Shown one piece after another: positions 39,001 through 64,000 of a stretch of DNA of 64,000 bases. Under the pieces are notes generated by a model, which saw nothing but the letters and a program-made list of their open reading frames with translations, did no database searches and was not told where the DNA came from. A program made the translations under genes and the position numbers. The stretch comes from Nageia nagi. Taxonomy: Eukaryota > Plantae > Pinophyta. Location of the stretch: the NCBI GenBank assembly GCA_050084985.1, contig JBITNC010000001.1:28148001-28212000 (forward strand), given 5' to 3'. Position 1 is the first letter of the stretch; every line of letters begins with the position of its first letter.

Positions 39001-39503
39001 GCAGCACAGCGGATAAAAAATAGTCCTTCCCTCCAACGAGAAATGTGAGCAAATATTCCTTCCCTCAACCGAGAAAAGTGAGCTTTAATAAAACCCTGAT
39101 ATTGGCCATACAATTGCACTACATTTTGGGATTTCAGTTGCCTTCCGAGGAATTTGGCAACCTCGTTAAACTGCATATATGCTTCTACAAATAGGCTTTT
39201 TCGTTGACAGCAGGAAATCCTTCTTTTGCCTTGTTTGTTTCTACCTTGACCTATACGTTGCAGCTTATGTAACTCACATACTGGACTTTGTTGATCACTC
39301 GGGGGAATCGCAAGAAAACGCTTATTTAACTGCGCTAATCTCTTGTTGCCATTGCTATAAGCACTAAACTCTCCCACGTTCAAGGCATGCCTGTGACATG
39401 AACTTGGAAGAAAAGGATATGCAGCTAATCCATGGGAAAATGTTACACCCAAGGTACTCATCAAACTGCCATTGCAACTGGGCATTGCTGCCCCCAACGA
39501 CAT
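1..39503 (-). CDS. TIC236: TIC236 / EMB2410 / SSG4 (chloroplast inner-envelope TamB-like TOC-TIC linker); spliced gene span, 3' part beyond window start
   Basis: Nine exons join through GT-AG sites. They give motifs recalled from Arabidopsis TIC236: WREGLFFIRC, GPHSEEFSCGE, QKEDWTWLGIP, LDSVVFRNGTLMLLGYGDGEPR, AVFNCQGPLDAP, AAFDRVP, NFTFNTDNC, ADLYGIRATLVDGGEIRGAGNAWIC. Exon 5 carries one extra base. Confidence 0.95.
586..669 (-). CDS. TIC236: TIC236 coding exon 8
   Basis: ttgcag|ATG GCA GAC ... GAA GAG|gtattc; 84 nt; MADLYGIRATLVDGGEIRGAGNAWICEE. Confidence 0.94.
947..1174 (-). CDS. TIC236: TIC236 coding exon 7
   Basis: atgcag|ATA GCT GGT ... AAT TGT|gtgagt; 228 nt; IAGSLSAVFNCQGPLDAP...NFTFNTDNC. 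Confidence 0.94.
1292..1366. repeat. Two-copy ~38-bp tandem duplication
   Basis: ggccaagttttcaacatgt(ggt)aagatgaatttaccac twice. Confidence 0.85.
2850..3662. mobile_element. Non-autonomous hAT-type element (MITE)
   Basis: Perfect 8-bp TSD GTTTATAT (2842-2849, 3663-3670). Imperfect TIRs CAAGGAAACGAGGGGACAAGTCCCC / CAAGGTTGTCAGGGGATGTGTCCCC. Subterminal GGGGAC/GTCCCC motifs. Confidence 0.88.
3893..4632. repeat. Tandem duplication, ~374-bp unit x2
   Basis: Units start ttgaggttggcttttggcaatagatag at 3893 and 4267 and are nearly identical. Confidence 0.9.
6522..10457 (+). mobile_element. hAT DNA transposon, decayed autonomous copy
   Basis: Perfect 8-bp TSD GTAGGTAG (6514-6521, 10458-10465). TIRs CATAGATGGTTTAAT / CATAGTTGGTTTATT. 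Subterminal CGAA/CCGA repeats. Confidence 0.93.
7121..9859 (+). pseudogene. hAT transposase pseudogene (BED finger, DUF659/RNase H-like core, dimerisation domain)
   Basis: KCNLCGKEF, GPRYKAPT, LEDIGKLDWVK, ITKFIYNH, RPRVTRFAS, YEGMDRAKEAI, IDARW, CERN motifs; stops and frameshifts; introns ~7721-7847, ~8934-9083, ~9208-9337. Confidence 0.9.
12089..12643 (+). mobile_element. 3' half of an LTR related to the solo LTR at 28031-29187
   Basis: Shares atattttcaataaaatt and agg(g)tttgtaaatttt..tttgg blocks with the 28031-29187 LTR; ends ...gggaatattACA. Confidence 0.6.
13031..13093 (-). CDS. TIC236: TIC236 coding exon 6
   Basis: ttacag|GTC CCA AAT ... TAT CCT|gtaagt; 63 nt; VPNVEVNALMRALNARPPVYP. 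Confidence 0.9.
14570..15260. repeat. Extremely AT-rich low-complexity tract with short internal direct repeats
   Basis: attcatttttattcaaatttaaaatttatactt x2 and tttttaaataataaa x2; no TSD found. Confidence 0.55.
15805..15946 (-). CDS. TIC236: TIC236 coding exon 5 (apparent 1-nt insertion)
   Basis: attag|GCT CTA CAT ... TGC CAG|gtcata; 142 nt. Reads ALHGSLCFQGQRIF, then in the +1 frame LHNASCIFGEVPLEVSGDFGINPEDGEYHLMCQ. Confidence 0.9.
16257..17700 (+). mobile_element. LTR-like remnant filling most of TIC236 intron 4
   Basis: Start TGTGATGTCCCAAATATTTTCCAGCCTTGTA resembles the start of the 28031 solo LTR; 3' end and TSD not found. Confidence 0.55.
17792..17896 (-). CDS. TIC236: TIC236 coding exon 4
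   Basis: ttacag|GTT CAT ... TTT TCT|gtgcgt; 105 nt; VHIFMSRGEQFPKLHGQLDVKELEFQVLDSPSSFS. Confidence 0.93.
18990..19440. repeat. Dispersed repeat copy 1 (probable LTR fragment)
   Basis: Shares gatagactt(t)agcaa, aaacttc.attgat, aaatctgactcaaggaaa, atgatcaaatgagcatttg and ttttgagttcacc with 23190-23720. Confidence 0.7.
20471..21450. mobile_element. Non-autonomous hAT-type element (MITE)
   Basis: Termini CATAGTAGCCAGATTCG / CATAGTAATCAAACTCG; TSD ATGTAAAC / ATGCAAAC (7 of 8 match); AT-rich interior. Confidence 0.8.
21672..22300 (+). pseudogene. LINE (L1-like) ORF2 endonuclease fragment
   Basis: Degenerate NARG, FLIQETKL, EARGAS..LLTLWNP, TNVYAPN, WMVVGDFN, FT.TNRR and RLDRLL motifs. Confidence 0.85.
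23190..23720. repeat. Dispersed repeat copy 2 (probable LTR fragment)
   Basis: Homologous to 18990-19440, with an extra ~120-bp segment. Confidence 0.7.
26046..26105 (-). CDS. TIC236: TIC236 coding exon 3
   Basis: ctacag|CTT TTT GAA ... GGA AAG|gtgctc; 60 nt; LFERLLEIPIAWSNGRASGK (not in the ORF track frame). Confidence 0.92.
26305..26503 (-). CDS. TIC236: TIC236 coding exon 2
   Basis: tacgtag|G ATA ATG GAG AAT ... GCT CCA|gttagt; 199 nt; completes the AG+G Arg codon; IMENVNGHLNFQ...QQNWHVTIQAMNLFAP. Confidence 0.93.
26909..27249. mobile_element. Short hAT-type MITE
   Basis: Perfect 8-bp TSD GAAATAAT (26901-26908, 27250-27257); termini CAAGGTT / CAAGATT; repeated CATTCCC motifs. Confidence 0.85.
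28031..29187 (+). mobile_element. Solo LTR
   Basis: TGTAAT...ATTATA (decayed TACA end); TSD AAAGC / AAAGT; contains a (TTA)n run at ~28291-28313. Confidence 0.7.
29782..33466 (+). mobile_element. hAT DNA transposon, heavily decayed, with intron-rich transposase pseudogene (~30314-33170)
   Basis: Right TIR CATAGTTGTCAGAATTGG, degenerate left TIR CATTATTATCAAAATCGG, degenerate TSD around TTTAAC. Motifs MAKEGP..HY...CNYC, IPFNVANSPY, FLKSMDVS, TPCVAHVINLCLEDIGK, TQFAT, MDRAK, ERNWSTFEHIHSKKHNRL. Confidence 0.88.
33900..35268. mobile_element. Old LTR-retrotransposon-like remnants
   Basis: Minus-strand TGTTATGAACC start at 35268 with a TATA-like tatatagagg; boundaries unclear. Confidence 0.35.
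36053..36810 (+). mobile_element. Solo LTR
   Basis: TGTAATG...CATTTCA with a perfect 5-bp TSD CAGCT (36048-36052, 36811-36815). Confidence 0.88.
37204..39503 (-). CDS. TIC236: TIC236 coding exon 1 (transit peptide, TM helix, N-terminal region)
   Basis: Lies in ORF 37173..39527. First in-frame ATG at 39503 (MSLGAAMPSC...); nearby downstream ATGs are alternatives. Ends GAA CCC AG|gtttac (phase 2). Confidence 0.92.
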
Positions 39504-40557
39504 TGTCACATTCACCGGGAAAAGCACAAACCCAAAGTCATACTACCTGTTCCAGAATTACCTAACGATGTCTTCCGTTAAAAAAGTATTCCCTTGGAGT
39601 GAGATGCCAAGGTCTGAGAGGAAACTATGCCACATAACACAGACTTTTCCATAATTTCATAATGTGTAAACACCGTTATACCCACGGAATCCAACAAATA
39701 CAAACACCTTAACATCATTTCCATTAGCCCAAGTCCCTAATTTCCTTTCTCATATTGAGCACACTTTCCTGATTGCATACAGTTATGACTCCACCGAAAA
39801 TACCCCCGATACCATACCCTTGATTACTTCCCAGTAGAGAGAGCCCTTATCGGATATCCTTGTGCAGTCTGAAATTTACATTTATGTACACAAACAAATC
39901 TGTCACATAACAAAATACAATTTCCTGTCAATCTCCCGAGTATTTTCCACAAAAGGGTTCTTGTCACAAATCCTTGTACATGATGAAATTCAAATTTTCG
40001 TTCATATGAAAATCTAAATTCCTCTATTATAAAATGAAACTTTTAACATCAAATTCATTAATAGATTCCCCTCAGTATAAACCTGTATGCACCCAGTAAT
40101 TCAAATTCCTCACTATATGAAATTCTAAACTTCTCTGTTACATCAGAAAACGAAGAAATAATGCCCCTATAATTTCTCCTCAAATAAATCCCATGTTATT
40201 TAAATTTAGGGTCATATAAACTTCAAAGTTCTCTATTGCATAAACCAACCCCTAAATTGCAAATCCCTCTGTAAGTGAAATTCAAATGCCTGGTCATAAA
40301 AAGCTCCAAACCTCTCACTTGCATCATAGAACCCTAAAGTTCAAATCCCTCGATAATCTTCCACATAAACAATCCCTCTACCCCCTCAAATTCAAATCCC
40401 TCGACATAAACAAAACCCTACTCTCAATCAAATACTAAAAATCTCGTGAATAATTTAGATTTACCATACAATCCAAATTGACAGTGAAATTTCATCTTAT
40501 TAAATCAAATTTCTTTGTCAAATTCCTCCATGAAAAATCTCAGTAGAATTCTCTTAC

Positions 40558-43900: not shown

Positions 43901-46900
43901 TCTACCTTTGACATCTCTGATTTTGGTGTTATTTATATAGGAAGTCACTACCATTACACCAAAATAGACCTTTAAGGACACTTTTTAAATTAGTATTAAA
44001 TACCTTTACCAATGGTTTTTTAATAGTTGTATACCTATGTGTTATTAAAAATTTGATACTTTACAACAATAGTTCAAAACACTGTAAAAAATTACCTTAG
44101 TTTATACTTAGGACAATAATAAAAAATTATCTTAGGGTATTTTAGGGTTATTATTAACCATCGTAACAAGATATTTTACGATATTTAAAAACCATAGTAA
44201 AATAACCTAATATGATAGTGCCAATTGTCCTCCCAATGTATTTTTTGACGTTATGTAATTGCCTTAAATTAACAAAATATGATGGTTTATGATCACTCCA
44301 AAAGAACGTAAGATGGTAGTTATTAGTCATCATCTTACTATTACTTATAAAAAATGACACATTATCTCATGGAAAATAATGATTACAAATATCCCTAGAT
44401 CAGGATTTCTTAAGGAAGCTAAAAATCCTTTTTTTTTAGTGAAATGCAGCAAAAAGATAGAATCTCATGAAATGCAATGATCACGAGATATGTATATAAT
44501 AGGCATGGTTTAAAGGCTTTATAGTTTTTTCAAAAAATGCAAATGATTACTTTCATACTAGATTCAATAATCATTGCAAGTATGCAATGCAACTTCATTG
44601 TTTATATATGATATATAATAATTATTATTACAAGTATGTGGTAACTACCATTATGCAATACATTTTTCTCTCAAAAATGGTTGCACAAGAAATTATTGTA
44701 AGGGATGCCAACTTTTTTCACTACTTCAAGGATGGATGATGTTCATGTGGTGATTGCTAGTAATTGACCAAAGGGTATTTATTATAAAAATGGAATTAAA
44801 CTTTTTATAAAAAATGGTTTGTTTTAGGAAAGTTTTAACTATAGTGATCTTATCGTTGTTTTGTAGGTAGGCAATCATACAAGCACAATCTCCTCGGGAA
44901 TTCATCCCAACCTATTATTAGATTGGAAAAAAACTTTAAATCTTAAAGGGTGATTTTAAGGCTATAGTTTTTTTATAAGGGTATATTTATTAATGGGTTT
45001 TTTATACAAGGGCCCAAAACCTATTTTTACAAAATATCATCATATTTTGAATACAATATCAAGATGAAACAAAATTGCAGTAATTATATATATTTATCCT
45101 AGTTCTTAGCATTAGAGCATGGGGTATTGATGTTACTACGATCACCACAGTCTTCTTCCTCGTTTAGAACTCTCACAAAACTATCAAAATTTATATTATT
45201 ATTTATTACATGTCTTGAATTGCTTAATTCCTTGAATGTTTGTAAGGTTGTCATATATGCTTACATGAATTCATAATATTTTTGTATCGGTTATTTCATA
45301 TGGATGTACTCCTTTTTTACAACTACTATCACTTCCCATAGCTTTCCCCCCAACTTCCTCTTTGCATAAACATCATCATAGTGAGCTCTTATTTTCTATC
45401 ACACTTCATTCTTTCGAAGAAGAATCATAATCTACCTCATTGTATTTCGTTTTGGGCCTCTCCATGCTATGGACCTACATCTCCAAGCTCCACACTGCTT
45501 GCTTCCCTTTTGAATCCTATGAACCAAATGAGATCCCACTTATAATGTGGCTTCTACCCATGAAGTGCACATCCTCCCCTTTTGAGGGAAAGTATTTGTA
45601 AAAAGTTGATCCTCTCAAATGACTAGAGGACTCGTATGAATATAAGAGGATAACACTTAGGGATGATGATAGTGGAGGGTGAACTATATAGGGAATTAAG
45701 GAAGGTGGGCATATCAAGGATGGGGAAGTGATGGTGGTGGCTAAAGAGGGGAGGAGGGAAGGTTATTAAGAGGAGATGGGTTAAGGATAAATTATTATCG
45801 AGGAACTACAAATATTGTTGGAATGTATAATGCATTATTGTAAAGGTTGTATTAAATCTTTTATGTAAATTCACTAATATTTAAGGGTATCATTTGATAC
45901 CTTAAGTATTTAAGTGAATATGATAATGTAACTTATCCTACACTCCATGTTATGAACATGCCCCTTAGGTAAAAGGATGTGCATGTCATGCTTTTGTACA
46001 TTGGATAAAAGGTGATCTAAAAAGGGATTTTGGCCTATAAATAGAAGGCTCCCTCATTGCGATCATACACCAATTGTGGAGTAAAGTTATGCTATAGGAT
46101 AGAAGTGTAGGAGTTGAGATTAGGAGGATTGTGAGAGAGTTTTATTTGTGATTGAAGTAAAGATCTAGTTAGTGGATGTACTCCTAGTTGGAGGAACCAC
46201 TTTACATCTTGAGTTACTTTATGAGATTATCTTATGTGTCAATTTGTTATATGTGAATTTGAGAGCTTTCATGTGATCTTGGTTGTTTAGTATTGTTCTT
46301 GTTATAGTTCAATTCACACATTTGGTATCAGAGCTTGGTGTGGAAGCTCCTCTTCTTAAAGGTATTCTTTCCTCATCTTACACTTCATCGTTGAGGTAAA
46401 CTAAGAGAAGGTATCAATCCCTTTCCTCTTGGTTATTATTCTTTATTCTTGAATCATGCTACTAACATAATATTCGCTATGTGTTAGTTCTCTTAAGCAT
46501 AAAATGACTAACAAAATTGCAAAAATTGTTAGTTAATTCTAACCTCCTGTGATACTTGCAATTTTTTCTTAATTACTATAAGTTTTTAAGAGAAGGGGTT
46601 ATTACACAAATTTTGTGTAATATTACAAAGATAATATTACAAAATAGTTTAAAATGCAATTTTGTTTAGCATTTTTTATTAAATACTAACCTTTTTTTGT
46701 TAGGTGTTTTTTTTTTCAAAAAGGGTTAATGAACAAATTGCAATTTTTTTTTTATGATATAATGTCATATTTCAAAATACATCTTTTTTGAATATGCATT
46801 TTTAAAAAAATGTAGAAATGTCAAGGTTTAAACTATTTTGTTAATATTTTTTTCTTATAATACATATATATTCAAAAAGGCTGTCTCTCTTCCCTCTATG

Positions 46901-48969
46901 GTGACTTAGCAGTGGTGCCACCAAAAATGGCTCTCACTTGTTTAGCACCAGTGCCAAAGTTCACTCAACCTTGCTCCCCATCATGTCCATGCGAGAGGAG
47001 AGATGAAGAGGGCCATTCATCCCAAACCAAGCTCAACCCTTGCCCAATTGTCTTTTCTCCTTTACGACCTTCTTACAATGTCACAGCCTCCTTTCTTCCC
47101 TGCATGATCTTTTCCTTTACATATTGATAGGCTTTTTTTTATCTTTGCATATTACTTGCAACCTTGCAGGTCTCTCCTCCACACGGTCTTCCTTTTCTGC
47201 ACTATTACTTTTGCAAAACATTTTAACCCCTCCTCTACACACATTTTATTTGCATGACCTCGCAACCTCTCACTGCTCACAGCTTTGTGCCCATGTGATT
47301 GGCAATCATCAATCTCCTTTCATGGTGTGGCTAGTGACCATCAACCTCCACCACCTTGCCCATCAATTTTTTTCTCTTCCTTAAGTGCTATGTCGCTCAG
47401 TTCCCACCCCAACCTCATCGAGTGAATGGGTTGTAGGCATCACTTCTTTAGTTAGTAGGTCCCTCTCATCCCTCCTTGTTGCATAGTGATAGACTCCATA
47501 CTAAAACCATTTTTAACTACGTTTGCATCATTTTGGTTTGACCTGCCTTTAAACAATTCCCAGGCCTTGTGTATTCTTTCACATTTTTCATAGATGGCTA
47601 TCAGGGCATTCACAACCACAACATACGATGAAGAACCATTTTTAACTACTCTTTAATGGATGTCCATACTAAAACCTTTGCCCCCCCTAACACCTACTTT
47701 GCAACCTATCCAAGCTTGGCCCTGTTGCTCAGACCTTTCCTATCATGCTCAGACCTATTGCTCTCCATGTGAAACATTACAATGTAGACTACTTCAATGG
47801 CCTGTCTGCAAAATCAAGGGAGCTCAACAACTCCCTGGCGAGCCTTTTCTCCCTACATGGCCCCTTGCTCATGGCTCCTTGCTTTAGTCAAGGTTCATTT
47901 AATTTTTTTAACTTTCTTGCATGTTAGGGGAAACTTATTTAATACACATAAGAAATACTAACTCTTTTTGCAAAACATATACTCCAAATTTAATGCATAT
48001 GCACTTGCCCATTATAAGTTGCATTTAATATGTCATCATTACTTGCTCTCATTTTTTATGGAAATGAGGTAAATATAATGGGAATTTTTTAAATACACAT
48101 ATGCTTACATAATTTTTTTAATATTAAGAGGAAATATGTTTACTTATTCTTTGTTAAGAAAAAATGAAGAAATTTTTATATAGGAGTATAATTTTGCCTT
48201 AGTGATACCTCAGAAGTATGGTAATTTTTTTTTTGGCAAAATGATAATTGTTTAGTGTAAACATTTTGTTTACTAAAGTAAAACTAGCAATTTTGTTTAA
48301 CCTAAGTATCTATTGAAGAGATAATGTAGCCTAAAATTTTTAAGTGAATAGGAGGGATGAATTTTTATGTGTTTTTTGCTTAAAAATATTAGAGTTTTTT
48401 TTTTTATGAATAAATGCATGTCTAAATTTTTTAAATCTCTCTATGCACTCACTTTCTTATGCAAAGTTAATGGATTAACTTATGCAAACTATGGAATGCT
48501 ACATGCTTCTTGGAATAATATTACTTAATTTAATGGAATAATGTATACTCATGCTTACTACTTAAATTGCATGTTATGCTTAGTACTTGAATTTTATGCA
48601 TGCTTAATACTTATTTGTTAAGTTAATGCATGTTTATGCTTAAAAGATCCATGTTTAGTATTTAAATGTTTAAGTTAATTTTTTAAGTTAGATGTTTAAT
48701 ATTTTTTTTAATAATGCATGCTTATTACTTAAAATCTTAAGTTATGATGCAAACTACTTCCTTATGCAAGAATGGATTTGTGCAAAATTTGGATTGCTAT
48801 AATGATGTCCTTTATGGGTTAGCAAACAAAACCCATTGGACACTTAGGTTTCAAGTTATGAATGGATGATAATTAATTTTATGCTCTTTTACTTCATGTT
48901 TCACATCTTACTTTATTTACTTATGCAAAAATCATAAACATTGATATGAGTAGCCCTTAAAATGAACAC

Positions 48970-49180
48970 ATCTGCATGTACATTTTGCAACATGACTTAC
49001 TTGGGGAGCCATGAGGTGAGGACAGGCAGATTGGATCCTTTAAGTTCGATGATCCAAGTGGTGAAAAGTTCATATTTCTTAATTGCCCCTAAGTCTTCTA
49101 ATGGTCTGGACATAACTCTATTAGGTGGACAGGCATGTGTGTAGTGATACCACATGTCCGCATGTCCATTCAGAGATTAT
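48970..49180 (+). ncRNA. Putative structured cis-acting RNA domain in copia 5' leader (copy 1)
   Basis: Four stems supported by compensatory changes against copy 2 (60780-60988); GUGA tetraloop. Confidence 0.65.
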
Positions 49181-49579
49181 CTTAATAACCTAGAAGGAAA
49201 ACTTGAAATCTAATCAACATCAATAATTTGGTCGATCCAATAAATATCAAAACTTTGAAAAATAGCTAGTACTTCTCCTTGTGAGAATGTATTGCTACCC
49301 AAGAGGAACTAATTGAGGATTGGTAGTACTTGGGCTCCTCTTATGTGGGCATCCAAGTGAAACCTTAATTTTAGATAAGAAAACAAGCTCAACAATGTCA
49401 CTCCACATCTACAGTTCTTGAGATGAGAAATGTATTTAGGTACATGGGTTATTATTTGAATTGTAAAATATTTTCATTTATGAATCAAATCAAGCATGTC
49501 TTTAGTGTTAAATGTAACATGTATTATTTACTTGGTTTATTGAAAACACATGCATATTATTTCATATTTTTTGTAGCAA

Positions 49580-52500
49580 ATGGGAGAATCCTTTTTACCC
49601 AAATACATACTTTATGGTTTCAACTATGGGATTTGAAAACCTCATATGAAAACCAAATTACAAGCAAGAAAGCTATGGCAAATAGTGAATAAGAAAATGG
49701 TACCTCCTACAGATGAGAAGGCACTAAAGACTTACAACATAAAAAATGAGTTAGTAACCTCCATGATTTACCATGTACTTTTAGATGATGTGCTCCTGAT
49801 GATATCCTCTTCAACCTCAGCAAAAGAATCATGGGATAAGTTAAAGCAAATCTACCTTGGTTCAAACTTTTCAAGAAGGTTTACCATTCTCCAAAAGTTA
49901 CTTCAATCTCATCAAGGGGAAGATGAAAATGTGGTTATATACTTGAATAAAATCATTAACCTAAGGACCCAATTTGTTGCTTATGGGTGCAATTGGATTA
50001 ATGATGAGTTTATGGTCTTCATCATTCTTCAAGGCCTCTCTTCAAAGTTTGGAAACTTTGTAACAATTATGGAAATAAGGCTTGATGATGAAGAAGAAAT
50101 CTCCTTTGAGAACCTGTCTAGGTACCTATTGAAGCATAAAGAAACTCTTAACAATAAAAGGTTGATTTCTTCTCCTAAATATAATAACATTGCTCTTAGA
50201 CCAACCAAAACTCCTTTTAAGAAGAAGTTCAACCATCAAAAGAAATCTCACCCTTCTTCCTCCAAAAGGTTTGAGAAAAGAGGCAGTGGTTACAACAGCA
50301 ATAAGAATAATAAAAACAACAACCATAGTAGTAGGAACAATGGTAAAAACATTCATTTCAAGCAAAAAAATGGAAAAGGCAAAGTAAACACTCCTTATCT
50401 TAAGGAAAAGTTTGATGGCAATTGTAACTATTATGGCATTCAAGGTCACAAAGAAGTTGATTGTTACAAAAAGAAAAGAGGGAAAAAGTATAAAGCTAAT
50501 GGAAATGTAAAGAACTACAAATGAAAGAAAAATATTTATGTTGGTTTTATTATGACACTCTACTCCATGTCTCGCACTTTTTCATCATAATGGATTGTTG
50601 ACTCTGGTTGCACTAATCACTTATGCTTTGAAAAGGAAGAATTTAAGAACTTTCACAAGTATAAAAAAGATGTGGTTGTGATAGGTAATAACTCCATATT
50701 TGAAGTCCAAGGAATTGGGAATTTGTTAATTTATGAAAAAGATCTTGAAAATGTTCTCTATGTTCCTAAGTTAAGGATGAACCTTCTCTTCATGATCCAA
50801 GTTGCTAGAAAAGGGTACTCTTTTGAGTTTGACTCTCATTCCTAGTGCATTAAGAAAGGACTTAGCACATTGGTTAAAGGATCAGTAAAATGTAACCTAT
50901 ACATTATGGATCAAGTTCCATCAAAGATGTGTCTTACTTCTAATGTGTGTTCTAAAGGTAATATTTAGCATCATCATTTAGGGCACCTTAACTACAAGAG
51001 TATTCAAATCATGAAAGACCAAGAACTTGTGGAATGTCTGCCTTATATGTCTCCTTCAGTTGGTCTATGTAAGAAGTGCATTCTTGGTAAGATGCATAGA
51101 TAAAAGTTTGAAAAAATATAAGGCAAAAAGGGTATCTGAACCTCTTCAACTTATGCATTTAGATTTGATGGGTCTATTTTAGACTAAGTCACTTGGAGGA
51201 GCATCTTACAGCTTAACTTTCATTGGTGACTTTATTAAGATGACCTTTGGGTATCTACTTGAGCACAAAGATCAAAACTTTGAAATTTTTAAGGTTTTTA
51301 AGGCCTTTGTTGAGAATCAAACTAACTTTAAAATCAAGATGTTGAGATTAGATAATGGAGGAGAATATTGTAAGTATGGAATCAAGAGACAATTTATGAT
51401 TCCTTACAATCCTTAGCAGAATGGTGTTATTGAACAAAAAAATAGAATAATCATGGAGATGGATAGATGCATGTTTGGTAATCTTCCTAAGTTCTTATAG
51501 GGTGAAGCTGTGAGCACTGCTATTTACACCTTGAATAGGTATCCTATAAAATTCATTCAGAGAAAAACTCCTTTTGAGGTATTATTAGGAAGAAAACCTA
51601 ACATTTCTCACCTTAGGGTGTTTAGTTGTGAAGCATTATCCTATATTGTTTATGAGAAAAGGAAAAAGTTGGACAAAAGAGCTAAAAAATGCATCTTTGT
51701 AAGTTATAACAGTTAGCATAGAGGCTATAGGCTTTACTCTCCATCTTATAAAGCAGCGTTTATTTCAAAAGATGTAAAATTTAATGAATGTCCTAAAGAA
51801 TATTTTTATAATGAGGATGTTGATGTTAAGAGGACTCTTCAGTTGCACCTAACTAGTTCGATATTGATATAGATAAGTCACCTTAGGAACAAAATTCTCC
51901 AACATAAAGGATAACTAGGAGCATGACCTTGAATGAATTCTTAATTGCTAAGATTAACAACAAGCATGAGCCCTCAACCTTCAAAGAAGCTTCTAAGCAT
52001 GAGTGCTAGAAGGAAGCCATGAAAGTGGAGTTAAAGGTGTTTATGAAAAATAAAACTTGGGACTTGGTTCTTTATTTTAATGAGAAGAATATGATTGGCA
52101 ATAAGTAGATCTACAAGGTCAAGTTCAATTTAGTTGAAGATATTAAAAAATACAAGGCAAAGTTAGTAGCTAAAGGTTTTGCTCATAAATACAATGTAGA
52201 TTATGATGAAACCTTTGGTCCCATGGCAAAGATGCCTACTGTAAAGATTATCCTTACTCTTTCTACAACTCAAGGATAGAAAGTTTTTGAACTTGATGTT
52301 AAAAGTGCATTTATCAATGGTGACTTAGATGTAAAAATCTTCATGAATCAACCAGAAGGGTTTATTATGGAGGGCAAAGAGTACTTTATGTGTAAACTAA
52401 AGAAGTCATTATATGGACTTAAGCAAGCACCTTGAGCTTGGTATAAAAAGATTTCAAAGTACTTTGTAAACATTAAATTCTCCAAGTGTTTTACTGACTC

Positions 52501-53514
52501 CCATCTATATGTGCTCAATCAAGGGAAAGACATGGTCTTGATTATCCTTTATGTGGATGATCTTTTGATAACTGTGAATAATGATGAAATCATTCAAGAG
52601 TGCATATCCAAACTTAATGTAATGTTTAAAATGATTGATCTTGGTCTCTTGCACTATTATTTTGGAATACAAGTGTATCAATAGAAGGATTATACTTACC
52701 TCAATCAATTTAAGTATATATCAGACATATTGTAAAAGTTTAGAATGAAGGAGTGTAGATATGCCGAGATCCTAGTCTCTTATGGAATCACTATTTCTCT
52801 GAGCTCCAACTTTTAGTTAGCTGATGCTATAGCTTACAGGTAATTAATTGGTAGTCTTTTGTATTTGACTATATCCAAATTAGATATTACCTTTGTAGTG
52901 AATCTGATGGCATGATTCATGCAAAAATCATATGTTAAGCATCTTAATGCTATTAAGCAAATCTTGAGATATGTTGCAAGGACTAAGGATCTTCCTCTCA
53001 AGTATTCTAAGTTGCCTTCATTTGTTCTCTCTTGATTCTTAAATTCTAACTATAGGGGAGATAAAGATGATAGGAAATCAACCTGTACGTATATGTTTAG
53101 CATTGGTTCAGGTGCTATCTTTTGGGCTTCCAAGAAGTAACCTACTATTTTTCTTTCCACCATAGAAGCTAAATACTATGTCATGTCTGTTGTAGCCCAA
53201 AAAGCGTTTGGTTAAGGCATCTATTGAAAGAAATTAGATACGAGCAAGGTGGCTCATCATTGATTTCTTTAGATAATTAATCGATTATTTCTTTAGATAG
53301 GACTCTTGTGTTCCATTAGAGAATAAAACGTGTAAAAATCCATTTCTATTTTATCAAAGAGAAGGTTCTTGATGGCATCATACACCTAGAGTATTGTACA
53401 TCCACCTTAAACTCTGTTGATTTATTCACCAAGCCCCTCTGAGAATCTTAATTCTGTAAGCTTATTGATGCTATCAGGTTGGTGAAGTTGCCCTTAAGGG
53501 GGAGTGAAATTTGA
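49580..53514 (+). pseudogene. copia gag-pol pseudogene (copy 1)
   Basis: gag AKESWDKLKQIY and zinc knuckle CNY.G..GHKEVDC; protease WIVDSGCTNHLC; integrase HLDLMG and LRLDNGGEY; RT KAKLVAKGF, LDVKSAF, LYVDDLL; RNase H SWASKK and DLFTKPL; many stops and frameshifts. Confidence 0.93.
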
Positions 53515-53670
53515 ATTCTTATGTTAAATTCATGTTTGTGATGACAACCTCACCCTTAGGAGGATTTTATGCTATATAGTGTTGATTTTGTTTTACACCT
53601 TCATGGTAAGTTTGCTTTGCATGAGGAACTTGTACAAATTTTTAAAGCAAAATATTAGCCAATCTAACAC

Positions 53671-53873
53671 TATTTAGTTATCCATGTGTGAGGAACTTTT
53701 ATGTGTCTTTTGACATTATTCAGTTATCCATATGTGAGGAACTCGTATGTGCATGCTCTATTTTGGTTAATTTGGTACTGTTCAGTTATCAATGTGTGAG
53801 GAACACTTATGTGTCTTTTAGCATTATTCAGTTATCCATATGTGAGGAACTTGTATGTGCATGCTCTATTTTG
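53671..53873 (+). repeat. Tandem repeat in copia 3' UTR: four ~27-bp cores arranged as a 108-bp dimer x2
   Basis: tattcagttatccatatgtgaggaac-like cores at 53671, 53717, 53779 and 53825 (spacing 46/62/46). Confidence 0.85.
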
Positions 53874-54833
53874 TAATGATAATAAACACATGTCTTATAT
53901 ACAATAGGTGACTATGAGTTTTTGGCATGACATATTTTGATGACTTATAGTGCACCATTAATTAGTTTATGATGGCATTATGTGATTCATCTATCCTTGT
54001 TGAGATTAATATGTTACATCTAACTGATCTTGTTATTTGAGCAGGTTATGACTTGTAGGTTCCTTTGAGATTGTAGGTTACTTACCTCAGGTATGTAAAA
54101 TCTTGGAGACTCTTCATGACCTTAAGTTGGATGACTACTTCATGTACATTGAAACTGGTTGTGGTTAATGATTGTATTTGGCAAAGTAGTGAGTCTCAAA
54201 TTAGATTTTTCTTATTTCATAATTATGTAAAAAAATTTCATTTTTATTGTATCTATTTGAAGGAGAACTCTCTTACTTTCTCTTCTTCTTCTCTCTTATT
54301 CGCTCTATCTCAATATTGCATGAAGGGGGAGTGTTGGAATGTATAATGCATTATTGTAAAGGTTTTGTAATAATCTTCTATGTAAATTCACTAATACTTC
54401 AAGGTATCTTTTAATACATTAAGTATTTAAGTGAATATGATAATGTAACTTGTCCTACACTCCATTTCATGAGCATGCCCCTTAGGTAGAAGGATGTGCA
54501 TGCCATGCTATTATACATTGGATAAAAGGGTGATCCAAAGAGAGATTTTGGCCTACAAATAGAAAGCTCCCTCTTTGTGATTACACACCAATTATGGAGA
54601 AAAGTTATGCCATAGGATAGTGGTTAGGAGAAAAGAGTAGGAAGATTGTAAGAGTTCATATTTGTTAAGAAGAGAGATCTAGTTAGTGGATGTACTCCTA
54701 GTTGAAGGAACCACTTACATCTTGTGTTATATTTGTGAGATTATTTTGGGTGATAGTTAGATGTGATTGAGATATTTCATGTTATCTTGGTAGTTTAAAA
54801 TTATTCTTGTTATAGTTTAATTCTCTCAAATGT

Positions 54834-56417
54834 GAAGAAGTGAATTTGGCATTAATGAGAATAGTTGTGAATAAACTTGAACCTTAAACGATTCATGAAA
54901 CTATTAAGTTATCATATTGGAAGTCAACCATGTAGGCTAAATATGATGCGCTAATGAGAAATAACACATGGAAGTTGGTAGTTATTCAACCAGGGAAAAA
55001 GGTAATTAGATGAAAATAGGTGTTAAAAATAAAATACAAAGTTGATGGGATAGTCAATAAGAATAAGGCCCAAGTTATTGCCAAAGGATATGCTCGATAA
55101 GAAGGTATAAATTATGAGGATACTTTTGCTCCCATGAGCAAGATGAAGATCATCAAAATTGCTTTTACAATGGCAGTATAATTTGGCTAAAAAGTACATC
55201 ATATGGATGTTAAAAGTGCCTTCTTGAATGAAGATTTATAAGAAGTCTACATGTAACAACCTTAAGGGTTTGTGGTTGATCCAGGTCAAAGAAATGTGTG
55301 TAGATTGATAAATTCTTTATATGGTTTGAAATAAGCTCCACAAGCTTGGTACATAAAAATTGATTCCCATCTACTACAAAATGACTTTTATAGGAGTTTG
55401 TATGATCCTAATCTCTATCTTCAATAACATGTTGGGATATTATCATAGTTGTAGTATATGTCGATGATCTAGTTATCACATGTAGTATTATGAAGTTGAT
55501 CACATCTTGCAAAGATGACCTTAAAATATCATTCAACATGATTGACCTTGGTTTACTTCACTATTATCTTGGATTATAGTTCTAGTGTATGTAAGATCGA
55601 ATATTTTTTTCATATATGAAGTACACTAAGAAGTCATTGGTGAAATTTAAGATGAAATATTACCAATTGATGTTGATGTTAGTTGAACTTGATTTATATT
55701 TATCATGCCATGATTATTATCCACTTGTAAATGCAACTCTCTATTATTAACTTATTGGAGGGTTAATTTACCTAAAATACACCTGGCCAAATATTTGCTA
55801 TATCATTAGCTATCTTTTATTATTCATGTATGAACCAAATAAGGTCCATTAAACTACAACAAAGCATATTTTATGGTACATCCATGACAATAATAGTTAT
55901 TGCATGGAGTACTAGAAGAATGATAAGTTCATCTTGTCTAAATACATAGATGCAGATTATGGAGGGTCTTTAGATGATATAATATCAACAACATGATACA
56001 TGTTCTTCCCTAGAGTTGGACCAATTTCGTGGGGTAGCCAAAAACAAAGCATCACACCAATATCTACCATAAAGTTAGAATATTATACTATAGGAGATGT
56101 TGTTTATGAAGCAGTATGGTTATGTTGTATTTTGATAAACATTATAATTCCATATAAAAATCCATAACTTTACATTTCAAAAATCAAGGTGTACTGAAAC
56201 TAGTTCAAAATCTCTATTTTCACGAGCGCACCAAACACATTGAGATACAGGTGCACTTCGTTTAGGATCATGTTTCATTACATAACACCTAGCTCCACTA
56301 CATTTCCATGAAGAAGAAAATTATAAATATATTCACCAAATCTCTTGACAATGGAAAGTTTGAATGCTTTCAGAGCTTCCTCTCATGTCCTCTAAAGACC
56401 TAATGTATTATGGGGGG
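54834..56417 (+). pseudogene. Older, different copia RT-RNase H remnant
   Basis: YDALMRNNTWKLV, AKGYA, TFAP, MDVKSAFLN, LYGLK.APQAW, VYVDDL, PISWGSQKQ and FHERTKHIE motifs; PPT gggggg at 56412-56417. Confidence 0.88.
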
Positions 56418-58265: not shown

Positions 58266-60779
58266 TGTTGGAATGTATAATGCATTATTGTAAATGTTTT
58301 GTAATAATATTCTATGTAAGTTCACTAATACGTAAGGGTGTCATTTGATACGTTAAGTATTTAAGTGAATATCATAATATAACTTGTCCTACACTCCATG
58401 TCATGAGAATACCCCTTGGGTAAAAGGGAGTGCATGACATGCTTTTTACATTAGGTAAAAGGGTGATCAAAAGAGGGATTTTGGCCTATAAATAGAAGGC
58501 TTCCTCTTTGTTATCATACACCAATTTATGGAGAAAAGTTATGTTAGAGGATAGTGTTTAGGAGATGAGTTTAAAAGGATTATAAGAGTTCATATTTGTG
58601 AATGAAGTGAGATCTAGTTAGTGGATGTACTCCTAGTTGGAGGAACCACTTACATATTGAGTTATCTTTATGAGATTGCTTTATGAGTTATTTAGATATG
58701 ATTTGTGAGCTTTCATGTGATCTTGGGAATATAGAGTTAGTTTTATTATATTACAACTCTTTCATTTGGTATCAGAGCTCCTTGGAAGCTCTTCTTCAAC
58801 ATCTTTTAGGTCTTCATTCCTCTTCCTACACTCCATTATTGAGGTAAAATCAAGAGAAGGTATATATTCTCTCCTTATTTATTTATTTATTATTAATTTA
58901 TGATACTAACATTTTTTTATGTTAGTTGCAATTTTTTGTTTATAAAATTGCTCTATATATATTGCTATAATTTTTTTTAAATAGCTTTTCCTACCTTAGT
59001 ACTTCTAAAAAAAATAATTGTATTGTACAATTATTTTTTAATACTAACGCAAAGAAAGGTAATTGCATTTTATTACTATTTTTTTTTAAATTACCATTTA
59101 CTTTGAAAATAATTTCAAAATGGTTTATTCAAGACAAAAGATCTTTTTTTTTTAGTCTATCTTTGTTTCAAAAAAAGGGGGAGGGGTCTAATTTTCCAAA
59201 AAATGGAGCGATTTATTGTTTTCAAAATGCAACAATAAAGAATTATTTTCCATCATACAATTTTTTTTTGAGGTGGCTATTTTTTGCTAAGTAATAGGTG
59301 ATTGAGTAATCTGATGCCCACTATGGCTTTTCTTCTCAGCCCTCTATGTCTTCAGAGAACCTTGTGTTATTCACTTGGCCTTCTGAGAAACCCTTACACC
59401 TCTCTCCTCCAAGGAAAATTCATACTTGTCACCTTCTCCTCATGCAACATCTTCCTACTTGTGTGATTTTTTTTGTCTCCTCTCATGCAACCCTCCTACT
59501 CATTGCATCCTCCAATTTCATGTGAGCTAGTAAAGAACCCTTACATGTTGTTATAAAGGTCCTTGTAGCCTTCACCTCTTCTCAAAACCTTCATTCGTGT
59601 CATCCCCTCGCTCCATCAAAGCCTCTTTTCTCTTCGTGTGGAGCCTCTCCATGTCAGGCCCTTATGACTAACCTTGCTCCTTCTCACTCGACATCTATCA
59701 TTCAGCTACCTTCCATCTCCTTCCTCCCTGTTGGAGTTGCTTGAGAGGAGTATATATATATATTTTTAACCATCATTGTGCTCTTCACCTAATGTCTATC
59801 ATTCCTTAATAAACATGCCCTTCTTGGTTTACGTAGGGGGTAAAAGTCTTTTTTATTATTACTTGGAGTAAACTCTAGCTCTAAATTTAAAGCTTGAGTA
59901 AATTTTAAAGTTTTTTTTTATTACTTGGAGTAAACTCTATCTTCAAATTTAGTGCTTGTCATCATAATATGGAGGTTATGGCAAATTTAGTAAACTTAGC
60001 TAATATTGACTTTTGCCTTAAATTGCACAATTATCTTTTGTCTTTTTTTTTTTGAAAAATAAGATAAATAGTGCAAAAATTAGCATTTTTTTTACCTTAC
60101 TACTTAGGTAAGAATGATAAATAAATTTTCCCTTAGTTAAATTTATAAGGTTAAAATTGCAATAAGATTATTGAAGGGACCTTTTTAAGTAAAAAGGGAG
60201 AATCTTTTGTGAATATATTTTACTTAAAAATCCTTTTGCAAATGTTAAAATGCACTCCTATCAATATTATTGGATACCTCTTAAGTGTTTACCTTAATGT
60301 TCCTTTTTTAAATAAGAATGCAAAGTATGGAAATGATGGAATATTTGATGGATTTTTTTTCTTATGCAAAGTGATAGATAAACTTATGCAAATTAAGGAA
60401 ATGATGCATTTTTATGCCTCTTAAGTGTTTGCTTTAAATTGCTTATGAATGGACTTATTATTGTGTGCAAATAATGTATGCTTACCACTTAGAATTATAT
60501 GAATGATTTTTTTAAGTATTTAAATGTCTTATGAAAGAACTTGAGCAAATTCTCTATTTTTTCTCACGTAAAGTATGGAATGGACTTATAAAAAATAAGG
60601 AATGATGTAAAGATGTCCTTTAAAGGTTGGTAAATAAAATCCATTGAACTCTTAAGGTTCCAAGTTACAAATAGATGATGTTTTACTTATGCACTTTACT
60701 TCATGTTTTTCATTTTTACTTTATTTACTTATACAAAAAAAATGCAAAATTGATATGAGCAACCCCCTAAAATGAACAC

Positions 60780-60988
60780 ATCCACACATACATTCCATAA
60801 CATGACTTGTTTGGGGAGCCATGAGGTGAGGATAGGTGGAATGGAGCCTTTAAGTTCGATGATCCAAATGGTGAAAGTTTGTACTTCTTAATTGCCCTTA
60901 AGTCCTCTGTTGGTCTGGACATAACTCCAATAGGTGGATAAGCTTATGTGTAGTGATACCATATGTTCGTACATCCATTCAGGGATTA
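60780..60988 (+). ncRNA. Putative structured cis-acting RNA domain in copia 5' leader (copy 2)
   Basis: Homolog of 48970-49180 with covarying stems. Confidence 0.65.
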
Positions 60989-61411
60989 TCTTGATGACCT
61001 AGGATGACAATTTGAAACCTAATCAAGATTAATAAGTTGGTCGATCCAATAAACATCATAACCTTAGAAAATAGTAGGTACTTCTCCTTGTGAGAAAGTA
61101 TAATATTGACCAAGGTGAACTGATGGAGGATTGGTAGTAGTTTGGATCCTCTTATGTAGGCATCTAGGTGAAGGCCTAATTTTAAATAAAAACAAGCCTC
61201 AACAATCTCACTTTTCATATATAGTTCTCAAGATGAGAAATGTATTTAGGTAGATGGGTTATTATTTGAGTTGTAAAACATTTGCACTAGTGAATCAAAT
61301 CAAGCATGTCTCAGTTAATTGAATATAACATGTATTACTTAGTTAAAACTTAACATATAATGTTGAATATTGAACCACATGCTTATTATTTTTCATATTA
61401 TTTTGTAGCAA

Positions 61412-64000
61412 ATGGTAGACTCCTTTTTACCCAAACACATTCATGATGGTTCTAACTTTAGGATTTAGGAACCATGGATGAGAGCTGAATTACAGGCAAG
61501 GAAGCTTTGGAAAATAGTGAATGAGAACCTTGTTGCTCCTACATATGAGAAGGCACTTGAGACATATAACACAAAGAATAAGTTAGCTACCTCCATGATT
61601 TTTTATGTAGTTTTAGATTATGTGCTCTTGATGATTTCCACTTCAACCTCAGCAAAAGAAGCTTGGGATAAGCTTAAGCAAATCTACCTTGGTTTAAAGT
61701 TTTCAAGAAAGTTTGCTATTATTTAAAAGTTGTTTTAATCTCATTAAGGGGAAGATGAAAATATGGCTATCTACTTAAACAAAATTATTAACCTTAAGAT
61801 CCAACTTATTACTTGTGGGTGCAATTTGAACAATGATGAGTTCATGGTCTTTATCATTCTTCAAAGCCTTTCTTCAAAGTTTCTTAACTTTGTGATGGTT
61901 ATGGAAATTAGGCTTGATGATAAAGAATAAGTCTTCTCCTTTAAGAACCATTCTAGGCTCTTTTTGAAGTATGAAAAAACCCTTAATAAAAAGGTGTTGA
62001 TTTCTTCTCCTAAGGATAATAACATTGCTCTTGAAGCAACCAAAACTCATTTCAAAAAGAAGTTCAACCATCAAAAGAAATATTATCCTTCTTTTTACAA
62101 AAAAATTGAGAAAAGAGGCAACGATAACAATAGGAACAACAACAAAAGTGGTAGAAATAATGGCAACAATAACCACTTCAAGTAAAGAGATGGTAAAGAT
62201 AAAGCAAATAATTCAAATCCTAAGGCCAAGTTTGATGGAAATTATAACTATTATGGCATCCAAGGTCACAAAGAAGTTGATTTCTATAAAAAGAAAAAAA
62301 AGAAAAAGAATAAAGGTAATCAAAATGTAAAGAACTTTAAAGGAAAGAATAATATTCAAGCTGGTTTTGCTACAATGTTCTACTCCATGTCTCGCACTTT
62401 TTTATTTGATTGGATTATTAATTATGGTTGCATTAATAACTTATGTTTTGAAAAATATATGTTTGAAAACTTTCACAAGTATAAGAAAGATGCAATTGTG
62501 ATAGGTGATAACTCTATCCTTTAAGTCCAATGAATCAGGAGTGTTTTGATTCACGAGAAGGTTCTAACAATGTTCTCTATGTTCCTAAGCTAAGGATGAA
62601 CCTTCTCTCTATGATCCAAGTTGCAAGGAAAGGGTACTCATTTGATTTTGACTCATAATCTTAGTCCATAAATAAAAGTATTACCATGTTGGTTAAAGGG
62701 TCAATGAAAGATTATCTATACATTATGAATCAAATTCCAACAAAAATGTGTCTTACTACAAGTGTGTGTTCTAGAGGCAATCTTTGGCACCATTGTTTAA
62801 GGTACTTTAACCATAAGAGTATTCAAGTCATGAAAGACCAAAAACTTATGAAAGATTTACCTTCAATTTCATCTTCAATTGGTCTATGTGAGAAGTGCAT
62901 CCTTGACAAGCTGCATAGAGGAAGGTTTGAAAAGGATAAGGTAATAAGAGCATCTTAATCACTTCAACTTGTGCATTCAAATTTGATGGGTCCATTTAAA
63001 ACTAAGTCTCTTAGGGGAGCATCTTACATCTTCACCTTCATTGATAACTTTAGTAGGATGACCTTTAGGTATCTACTTGAGCACAAGGATCAAAATTTTA
63101 AGAGTTTTAAGGATTTTAAGGTCTTAGTTGAGAATCAAACTAACCTTAAAATTAAGATGTTGAGATTAGATAATGGGAGAGAGTATAATAGCAATGAGTT
63201 CAATTTCTATTACACTAAATATAGAATGAAATGGTAGTTTACAATTCCATACACTCCTTAATAGGATGTTATTACTGAAAGAAAAAATAAGATAATTATG
63301 GAGATGGCTAGATGCATGTTAGGTAATCTTCCTTGTTTGTTATGGATTGAAGCTATGAGCACTACTATTTACACCTTGAATAGGTGTCCCATAAAAGTTG
63401 TTTAAGGTAAGACTTCTTTTGAGACACGGTTAGGAAGAAAACCTAACATCTTTCACCTAAGGGTGTTTGGTTGTGAAGCATTCTCCTACATTATTTCTAA
63501 GAAATGAAAAAAGTTAGATAAAAGAGCTCAAAAATGTATCTTTATGGGTTATGATAGTTATCATAGAGGCTATAGGCTCTACTCTCCATCCTACAAAGTC
63601 TTGTTTGTTTCAAGGGATGTAAAGTTCAATGAATTTCTTAAAGAATTTACTTCTAATGAGGATGTTGATGATCTAGATGATTAGGTAATTGCTCTTAGCT
63701 GGTTGGATATTCATATAGATAAATCACTTCGAGAATAAAACTCTCCAACATAAAGGGTAATTAGGAGTATGACCTTGAACAAATATTTATTTGCTAAGAT
63801 TGATAACAAGCGTGAGCCCTCATCTTTCAAAGAAGCTTCTATGCATGAGTGCTAAGGGAAGCCATGAAAGTGGAGTTAAAGGTGTTTATGAAAAATAAAA
63901 CTTGGGACTTGGTTCCTTATCCTAATGAGAAGAATGTAAGTAGCAATAAGTGGATCTACAAGGTCAAATTCAATTCTATTGAAGATATTAAAAAATATAA
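61412..64000 (+). pseudogene. copia gag-pol pseudogene (copy 2, partial)
   Basis: ATG at 61412; AKEAWDKLKQIY, GHKEVD, HSNLMGP, LRLDNGREY and KNKTWDLV motifs; many stops. Confidence 0.92.

What the first reader, a model, noticed from the sequence alone, without database searches (positions are those of the whole stretch)
48970..49350. Covariation-supported multi-stem RNA domain in the long 5' leader of a copia family
Seen in sequence: the ~3 kb leaders of the two copies are mostly poorly alignable, but this block aligns well with 60780-61160, and its differences fall in paired positions. (1) Long hairpin 48970-48979/49022-49031: TCTGC/GCAGA becomes TCCAC/GTGGA, plus one further G-C to A-T change (3 compensatory pairs), enclosing an invariant CATGACTT/GAGCCATG stem. 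(2) Closing stem: AGTCTT/GAGATT becomes AGTCCT/GGGATT (T-A to C-G). (3) Stem CTAATGG/CTATTAG becomes CTGTTGG/CCAATAG (A-T to T-A transversion pair), with an identical 13-nt loop UCUGGACAUAACU. (4) Stem TGGAC/GTCCA becomes TGGAT/ATCCA, and GGCATGTG/CACATGTC becomes AGCTTATG/CATATGTT (3 pairs), capped by an invariant GUA-GUGA-UAC GNRA tetraloop. That is eight double substitutions; stems 2-4 form a three-way junction. Further shared hairpins follow (TTCTC/GAGAA, GAGGA/TCCTC). Inference: a cis-acting RNA such as a packaging/dimerisation signal, an RRE/CTE-like export element, an IRES or a ribozyme; I do not recognise it as a described family. Caveat: only two sequences are compared, and methyl-C deamination inflates chance GC/AT double changes.
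Basis: partly seen in the sequence, partly recalled or inferred. Interest (0 to 1): 0.8.

Follow-up and report, generated by a model that had tools for sequence, protein, structure and literature searches.

The report
Ultraconserved non-coding block in copia leader
A jumping-gene family from a gymnosperm (likely conifer) genome keeps a 436-base non-coding stretch in front of its capsid gene less changed than the capsid gene itself; it is likely a folded RNA signal that would mark the unspliced genome copy for export and packaging, but the paired mutations first cited as proof of its fold are mostly decay noise.

Summary
The sequences are as described, but the covariation argument fails. In 9 held-out copies the eight pairs hold in only 46 of 72 cells. 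Two-copy folding gives as many double changes in gag-pol (mean 3.9) as in the block (mean 3.1). Most are methyl-C decay or private to copy A.

The element is real on other evidence. A sharply bounded 436-nt core (48955-49390) shows 0.056 transversions per site, against 0.074 at gag-pol codon positions 1+2, 0.247 at fourfold sites and 0.20-0.35 in the flanks. It has no codon periodicity, no Rfam match, and occurs in runs of 8 organisms. Only its central hairpins fold better than shuffles.

It lies near the 3' end of a 2.5-3.3 kb, AUG-rich leader. The leader opens with an invariant splice donor (7 of 7 copies) and has an AG just before the gag ATG in 5 of 8. Best reading (0.45): an export/packaging signal inside a facultative leader intron, kept only in genomic RNA. 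Rivals are an IRES, an internal promoter, or a ribozyme (a hammerhead-like motif fails the strict test). No expression data were found.

The parts
48955..49390 (+). Conserved non-coding core, copy A (436 nt)
   Evidence: Transversions 0.056 vs 0.074 (gag-pol positions 1+2), 0.247 (fourfold), 0.20-0.35 (flanks) over 8 copies; sharp edges in 20-nt bins; no 3-nt periodicity
60765..61200 (+). Conserved non-coding core, copy B
   Evidence: 82.7% identical to copy A
49092..49178 (+).
   Evidence: Pairs kept in 85-94% of cells; alignment folding z -3.4/-3.8; the hairpin tip was my search pattern, so its invariance in the loci is by selection
49231..49324 (+). Predicted long 3' hairpin domain (49231-38/49317-24 and 49253-58/49299-304)
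   Evidence: 76 of 80 and 54 of 60 cells paired, no double changes; alignment folding z not significant on +. 49315-21 can pair instead with 49092-98 (66 of 70 cells), so two folds compete
49026..49073 (+).
   Evidence: 63 of 76 cells paired; pair 49029/49070 is GU 5, UA 2, GC 1, AU 1, unpaired 2; found by eye, not by the systematic scan
49040..49082 (+). Hammerhead-like motif, probably not an active hammerhead
   Evidence: Strict descriptor 0 of 11 copies, relaxed post-hoc descriptor 3 of 11, shuffles 4-7 of 20000; core and stem I changed in common variants
48805..48842 (+). Smaller conserved hairpin upstream of the core, separated from it by a U-rich linker
   Evidence: 5-bp stem predicted on 11 rows; transversions 0.08-0.14
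46407..46416 (+). Candidate 5' splice site GAAG|GTAT (intron would start at 46411)
   Evidence: Present in 7 of 7 copies that hold the region; splicing itself not observed
46460..46487 (+). Branch-point-like CUAAC plus proximal acceptor GUUAG, which can pair with each other
   Evidence: Motif found in 7 of 7 leaders within about 200 nt of the donor; three copies in A
49566..49582 (+). U-rich candidate distal 3' splice site (AG at 49575-76) and gag ATG (49580)
   Evidence: AG in 5 of 8 copies with gag attached; absent in L001, L002, L008
45816..46320 (+). 5' LTR of element A (TATA at 46035); PBS for tRNA-iMet at 46323-46334
   Evidence: tRNA assignment of the PBS is recalled, consistent with PMC6317226 passages
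49580..53490 (+). Broken gag-pol of element A (Gag, PR, IN, RT, RNase H region) with stops and frameshifts
   Evidence: Pfam PF14223, PF22936, PF13976, PF00665, PF25597, PF07727 with X at stops; 3' end approximate
54332..54828 (+). 3' LTR of element A, preceded by a polypurine tract; 5-bp target duplication with one mismatch
58266..64000 (+). Element B: 5' LTR 58266-58764, PBS 58767, donor at 58860, gag ATG 61412; runs off the window

Best explanation
The block is a 436-nt non-coding element under strong purifying selection in the leader of a Ty1/copia family from a gymnosperm, and it likely works as a folded RNA signal inside a predicted facultative leader intron that would mark the unspliced genomic RNA for nuclear export and packaging. 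Model: the LTR makes one transcript. Splicing from the donor 90 nt past the LTR to the AG before the gag ATG would remove about 3 kb and dozens of AUGs, giving a gag-pol mRNA without the block (inferred). Transcripts that escape splicing keep the block, about 200 nt upstream of that acceptor, where it would bind export factors or Gag and perhaps hold the acceptor back (inferred). Shown: constraint, boundaries, non-coding pattern, invariant donor, AUG load, position. Predicted only: the fold. Untested: splicing, expression, any binding.
For: Constraint: transversions 0.056 in the core vs 0.074, 0.247 and 0.20-0.35 (8 copies, 28 pairs); without the 21-nt search pattern 0.062 vs RT positions 1+2 0.042 and RT fourfold 0.156 (4 copies); against fourfold divergence the core's slope is 0.146 vs 0.280 for gag-pol positions 1+2, r 0.82 (15 pairs). 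The two LTRs of A differ by 0.063 transversions, so most differences between cores can be post-insertion decay, which also explains why covariation is scarce. The core is more conserved than the promoter-bearing LTR half (0.10-0.30). Donor 7 of 7, branch-point/acceptor motif 7 of 7. Leader holds 106 (A) and 70 (B) ATGs, partly inflated by decay, and 5-13 lie between core and gag start. Leader length stays 2.5-3.3 kb in 6 copies though unalignable. L003 keeps the block but lacks gag and protease (one copy). Size matches retroelement export elements (musD MTE about 400 nt, PMC4588558 passages). Central hairpins fold better than shuffles, slightly more on +.
Against: No significant covariation. 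Transversions in 6 held-out copies do not avoid stems predicted from the other 5 (p 0.11-0.90 in 8 tests). Folding signal is confined to 49065-49239, is nearly as strong on the minus strand, and one of 8 gag-pol control windows scores higher. The distal AG is missing in 3 of 8 copies. A proximal acceptor exists, so the donor may serve only a short intron that leaves the block in the mRNA. Described packaging signals of LTR elements usually lie next to the PBS (recalled), not 2-2.6 kb downstream. Only 11 copies, all decayed, and all selected by one exact 21-nt pattern.
Confidence: 0.45

Rival explanations
1. The block is an IRES or ribosome-shunt element that lets the unspliced RNA be translated at the gag AUG despite the long AUG-rich leader.
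For: It sits 160-230 nt before the gag ATG in all copies; the leader cannot be scanned easily; sequence-level conservation above coding sequence is typical of viral IRES leaders (recalled); the distal AG is absent in 3 of 8 copies.
Against: 5-13 ATGs and a poorly conserved spacer (transversions 0.20) separate core and start codon; it does not explain the invariant donor; gag-less L003 keeps the block.
Confidence: 0.17
2. The block acts as DNA: an internal promoter or enhancer that makes a short gag-pol mRNA, while the LTR makes the genomic RNA (two RNA pools, as BARE achieves with two TATA boxes).
For: Constraint is on primary sequence in predicted loops as well as stems; little strand asymmetry in folding; BARE precedent for separate pools (PMC3735527 passages).
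Against: 436 nt of nearly indel-free constraint, well above that of the element's own LTR promoter; no canonical TATA seen by eye in the alignment; stable hairpins with a GNRA loop.
Confidence: 0.13
3. The block is, or contains, a ribozyme (hammerhead-derived or of a new class) that cuts the transcript and releases a gag-pol mRNA.
For: Relaxed type I hammerhead descriptor fits 49040-49082 in 3 of 11 copies and 4-7 of 20000 shuffles; U4C, U10.1-U11.1 and 2a/2b insertions each have natural precedents (PMC3088659 passages); T at core position 4 exceeds the matching G>A decay in all 4 runs, so some lineages may have the canonical CUGA; near-uniform constraint suits a compact tertiary fold.
Against: Strict descriptor 0 of 11; descriptor was relaxed after seeing the sequence; position 4 is C in 45-89% of depth; the A13 position reads T in 85% (X12) and 65% (X18) and 74% (X13); T>C at 60889, 83% in X7, breaks stem I; no Rfam ribozyme hit at E up to 10; cutting between PBS and gag would harm the genomic RNA.
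Confidence: 0.07
4. The block is a captured host non-coding RNA gene or an independently transcribed RNA, like the 5S part of Cassandra or the tRNA part of Helenus.
For: Sharp edges and uniform constraint; precedents exist in LTR elements (PMC10886601 abstract).
Against: No Rfam hit, no tRNA (8 loci); every profile hit in the window and loci lies in this element family; the precedents lie in LTRs of non-autonomous elements.
Confidence: 0.05
5. No function: the block looks conserved because of a recent swap or gene conversion among lineages, or because my search pattern selected similar copies.
For: All 10 loci were picked by an exact 21-nt pattern; gene conversion is frequent in conifer LTR elements (PMC5751070 passages).
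Against: Core divergence tracks gag fourfold divergence (r 0.82); lineage-specific indels persist in the core; rates vary 0.009-0.146 between 20-nt bins; removing the pattern changes little; thousands of contigs lay on the block in 8 runs chosen without the pattern.
Confidence: 0.05

Closest known systems
musD transport element (MTE) and other retroviral export elements (CTE, RRE, MLV PTE); PMC4588558, passages read
   Same: About 400 nt, multi-stem, non-coding, in an LTR retroelement whose genomic RNA must leave the nucleus unspliced
   Different: MTE lies next to the 3' LTR of a mouse retrovirus-like element; this lies in the 5' leader of a plant Ty1/copia. No sequence or Rfam similarity was found; function untested
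CaMV 35S RNA leader (export enhancer, packaging signal, shunt, splice donor); PMC8421220, passages read
   Same: Long AUG-containing leader of a plant reverse-transcribing element, with a splice donor and structured part that serves export and packaging
   Different: CaMV leader is about 600 nt, one large stem-loop starting near the cap and upstream of the PBS; here the block is 2-2.6 kb downstream of the PBS behind an unconserved spacer
BARE1 and EVD/ATCOPIA93 splicing and RNA pools; PMC3735527 and PMC5580714, passages read
   Same: Plant Ty1/copia elements with a facultative intron and distinct RNAs for translation and replication
   Different: Their introns lie at the gag/protease boundary and make a gag-only mRNA; the predicted intron here is in the 5' leader. 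The passages read describe no conserved 400-nt leader element
Retroviral Psi downstream of the major splice donor (MLV, HIV-1); recalled, not checked in a call
   Same: A signal kept only in unspliced RNA because it lies inside an intron
   Different: Psi abuts the PBS and gag is translated from the unspliced RNA; here gag-pol would come from the spliced RNA
Retrozymes (hammerheads in plant LTRs); PMC4918200, abstract read
   Same: LTR element with a hammerhead-like motif
   Different: Retrozymes are non-autonomous, gypsy-related, with canonical hammerheads in each LTR; this motif is internal, in an autonomous copia, and fails the core consensus

Membership tests
Ty1/copia LTR retrotransposon | LTRs TG..CA, PBS, PPT, target duplication, order Gag-PR-IN-RT | tested here: met
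   element broken by stops and frameshifts
Named REXdb lineage (Gymco I-IV, Ivana, Ale, Tork etc.) | Placement of RT/IN/RH in the REXdb trees | not testable with these tools
   REXdb sequence file too large to read; lineage not assigned
Named conifer families (PtCumberland, PtPineywoods, PARTC) | Sequence identity, element and LTR length | tested here: inconclusive
   By length only: PtCumberland 9092 bp but 1500-bp LTRs; PtPineywoods 510-bp LTRs but 5373 bp; this element 9013 bp with 505-bp LTRs. PARTC paper seen only as a reference
Any Rfam 15 family | Covariance-model score at the gathering threshold | tested here: not met
   Best hits 10-26 bits, all far below thresholds, none a ribozyme, IRES or retroviral element
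Hammerhead ribozyme type I | Core C3 U4 G5 A6 N7 G8 A9 / G12 A13 A14 A15 / U16 H17 | tested here: not met
   CUGANGA and GAAA together in 1 of 11 copies (L001); strict descriptor 0 of 11; common variants at positions 4 and 13
Hammerhead ribozyme type I | Three helices closing directly on the core | tested here: inconclusive
   Stems II and III present; stem I needs a 1-2 nt insertion and is broken by common variants; relaxed fit 3 of 11
Hammerhead ribozyme type I | Self-cleavage | not testable with these tools
   needs in vitro assay
Retroelement export/packaging RNA (MTE, CTE, Psi class) | Non-coding, conserved, a few hundred nt | tested here: met
Retroelement export/packaging RNA (MTE, CTE, Psi class) | Conserved secondary structure shown by covariation or probing | tested here: inconclusive
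   central hairpins favoured by folding; covariation not significant and power low
Retroelement export/packaging RNA (MTE, CTE, Psi class) | Present in unspliced but not spliced RNA; confers export or Gag binding | not testable with these tools
   splice-site motifs only
Protein-coding exon or extra ORF | Codon periodicity and frame-keeping indels | tested here: not met
   transversions 0.052-0.064 in all three positions, flat in thirds; shared 1-nt indels

The most novel reading that the evidence does not exclude
The 436-nt core is a large undescribed RNA machine: a conformational switch or ribozyme of a new class, with two competing sets of invariant helices and a hammerhead-like subdomain, that decides whether a plant copia transcript is spliced or cut into a gag-pol mRNA or kept whole as genome.
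Probability: 0.1. Interest if true: 0.88.

Novelty: new variant of a known kind. Interest (0 to 1): 0.52.

Why it matters
A 2025 review states that RNA export of plant LTR retrotransposons has not been studied directly and that these elements generally lack introns (PMC12786077 passages). This family offers a bounded candidate signal, conserved about as tightly as reverse transcriptase codons, and a predicted leader intron, in a high-copy family found in runs of 8 organisms. Both can be tested with reporters and existing RNA-seq. The case is also a warning: methyl-C decay in old plant repeats produces convincing-looking compensatory changes between any two copies.

Tried and rejected
Covariation as evidence: rejected. 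Held-out test that transversions avoid predicted stems: null in 8 of 8 settings. Rfam: nothing in 4 scans. tRNA/tmRNA: 0 in 8 loci. Coding exon or conserved uORF from the AUG at 48963: frame not kept across copies. Likeness to group I core, group II domain 5, RNase P, SRP and snoRNA boxes was considered by eye from recalled motifs only and dropped, since Rfam holds these models and gave no hit. Hammerhead: see rivals. No whole genome is held and the metagenome loci are not searchable as genomes. Pattern scans of viral and genome contigs: 0; gag scans there: 0 confirmed. Profile search of window plus loci found only the 12 known rows. Contig depth was not used to rank parts. No covariance model was built. 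The bacterial promoter scan does not apply to a plant. The RT query was one base out of frame; those RT numbers are void and were redone. Two helices (upstream hairpin, basal helix) were entered out of register and are not used. Literature: 10 searches listed no paper describing such an element; the library lacks most subscription journals, and Repbase/REXdb/ConTEdb entries could not be read. The 2025 plant structured-RNA survey has no mention of transposons or gymnosperms in its main text. Earlier scan findings: none by sequence, place or words bore on this.

Full report
Setting. The window holds two decayed copies of one Ty1/copia family: element A (45816-54828, complete) and element B (from 58266, running off the end). 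LTRs, PBS, PPT and the order Gag-PR-IN-RT are present. The best named relative of a host gene in the window is a Ginkgo protein, at 59% identity over 99% of the query and nearly 50 orders of magnitude ahead of the next named hit. The host is therefore a gymnosperm; conifer is my inference. No genome is held, so relatives came from one pattern scan of metagenomes: 10 loci, of which L004 and L008 are one copy, giving 11 independent copies with A and B. Contigs from 8 public runs of 8 coded organisms in 7 studies also lay on the block: 10761-13172 each on 551 nt and 1016-3211 each on 131 nt.

The observation. They do not show selection on pairing. In the 9 held-out copies the eight pairs are standard pairs in 46 of 72 cells. 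48973/49028 is C-A in 6 of 9. 49130/49164 and 49132/49158 pair in 3 of 9. The T-A at 49096/49174 occurs only in A. The 'transversion pair' 49101/49121 joins a change private to A with a variant that leaves T-T in L001. Only 48974/49027 has both Watson-Crick types in several copies, and both sites are in CpG context. Folding any two copies together gives a mean of 3.1 double changes in the block and 3.9 in gag-pol windows of equal length; A/B, with 7, ties the maximum of both sets. A decay-tolerant scan found 496 possible helices, 19 with a purine/pyrimidine swap, none with a convincing recurrent one.

What is real. Transversions are not inflated by methyl-C decay, so I used them. Over 28 pairs of 8 copies the core 48955-49390 has 0.056 per site; gag-pol codon positions 1+2 have 0.074, fourfold sites 0.247, the downstream spacer 0.200 and the upstream leader 0.351. 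Without the search pattern and against RT, the core has 0.062, RT positions 1+2 0.042 and RT fourfold sites 0.156. The core diverges with the lineages (r 0.82) at half the slope of gag-pol positions 1+2, which argues against a recent swap. It is more conserved than the LTR. The two LTRs of A differ by 0.063, so the differences between cores are about what post-insertion decay alone would give. That means almost no change was accepted while the elements were active, and it also means these copies have little power to show covariation. The block is not coding and matches no Rfam family.

Structure. Only 49065-49239 folds better than column shuffles (z -3.4 and -3.8 on +, -3.1 and -2.6 on -); the other four core windows do not on +, and one of eight gag-pol controls scores higher. 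Single copies agree: mean z -1.84 for 49085-49215, +0.25 for the 5' third and -0.82 for the 3' third. Several nearly invariant helices exclude each other: 49092-98 pairs with 49173-78 or 49315-21, and 49315-24 also pairs with 49231-38. Transversions in held-out copies do not avoid predicted stems. So the constraint is on sequence throughout, and the fold is unresolved beyond the GNRA hairpin and its neighbours.

Context. The PBS-to-ATG leader is 2.5-3.3 kb in 6 copies though its middle cannot be aligned, and it holds 106 and 70 ATGs in A and B (part of this is CpG decay). A donor-like GAAG|GTAT about 90 nt past the LTR is invariant in 7 of 7 copies. A branch-point-like CUAAC and an acceptor-like GUUAG follow in 7 of 7 and can pair with each other. 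A U-rich AG lies 3 nt before the gag ATG in 5 of 8 copies with gag attached; L003 and L010 are rearranged there and were left out of that count. Between core and ATG lie 163-233 poorly conserved nt with 5-13 ATGs.

Mechanism. The simplest model that uses all of this is a facultative leader intron. Splicing would give a short-leader gag-pol mRNA, and the unspliced RNA would be the genome. An element kept only in that RNA, near the acceptor, of the size of the musD transport element (PMC4588558, passages), would serve export, packaging or splice restraint (0.45). An IRES or shunt (0.17) fits the position but not the intervening AUGs or the donor. An internal promoter (0.13) fits the sequence-level constraint but not its length and density. 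A hammerhead-like motif at 49040-49082 is rare in shuffles under a descriptor relaxed after the fact, but fails the strict consensus in 11 of 11 copies and is changed at core and stem I positions in common variants (consensus from PMC3088659, passages) (0.07). None of these was tested on RNA.

Known systems and novelty. It works like retroelement export/packaging RNAs, by inference; it is a member of no described family that I could test. Plant copia introns described so far lie at the gag/protease boundary (PMC3735527, PMC5580714, passages). Ten literature searches listed no description of such a leader element, with the limits given under Tried and rejected; REXdb supplements that could assign the lineage were too large to read. 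Papers seen: abstracts of PMC10886601 and PMC4918200; passages of PMC3762812, PMC6317226, PMC3735527, PMC12786077, PMC4588558, PMC8421220, PMC5580714, PMC5751070, PMC12218528 and PMC3088659; PARTC as a reference only.

Verdict. Interest 0.52: a new variant of a known kind, with strong evidence for function, weak evidence for the fold and an inferred mechanism.

Noticed in passing
window 50016-50095 (+), inside gag: A long conserved hairpin inside gag: alignment folding z -5.3 (+) and -8.7 (-), SCI 1.23, stronger than any window of the leader block. It could be a second cis-acting RNA or a by-product of hydrophobic and acidic codons.
   Followed up: partly
window 46460-46487, 46507-46535, 46685-46705; same motif in B, L002, L006, L007, L009, L010: Branch-point-like CUAAC and acceptor-like GUUAG that can pair with each other across a variable 5-15 nt loop, in 7 of 7 leaders. 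This could keep a short intron from being spliced and lost during retrotransposition.
   Followed up: partly
window 54960-55657 (+): RT of another, older copia (about 41% amino-acid identity) follows the 3' LTR of A, so A probably inserted into another element.
   Followed up: no
L003:156-4148: A copy that keeps the block, with a tandem duplication of the upstream hairpin, lacks gag and protease, has an array of about 90-bp repeats instead, then IN-RT. Possibly a non-autonomous lineage.
   Followed up: partly
window 53500-54330: An 800-nt 3' untranslated region in element A with a tandem repeat of about 108 nt at 53669-53873.
   Followed up: no
window 37173-39542 (-): Large exon of an embryo-defective 2410/TIC236-like host gene (TIC236 name recalled); best named hit is Ginkgo at 59%.
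   Followed up: partly
window 7215-9859 (+), 5147-5759 and 11473-12088, 3893-4638: Fragments that look like a hAT transposase (by eye), a 616-nt repeat pair at 89% identity around them, and a 373-nt tandem duplication at 95%.
   Followed up: no
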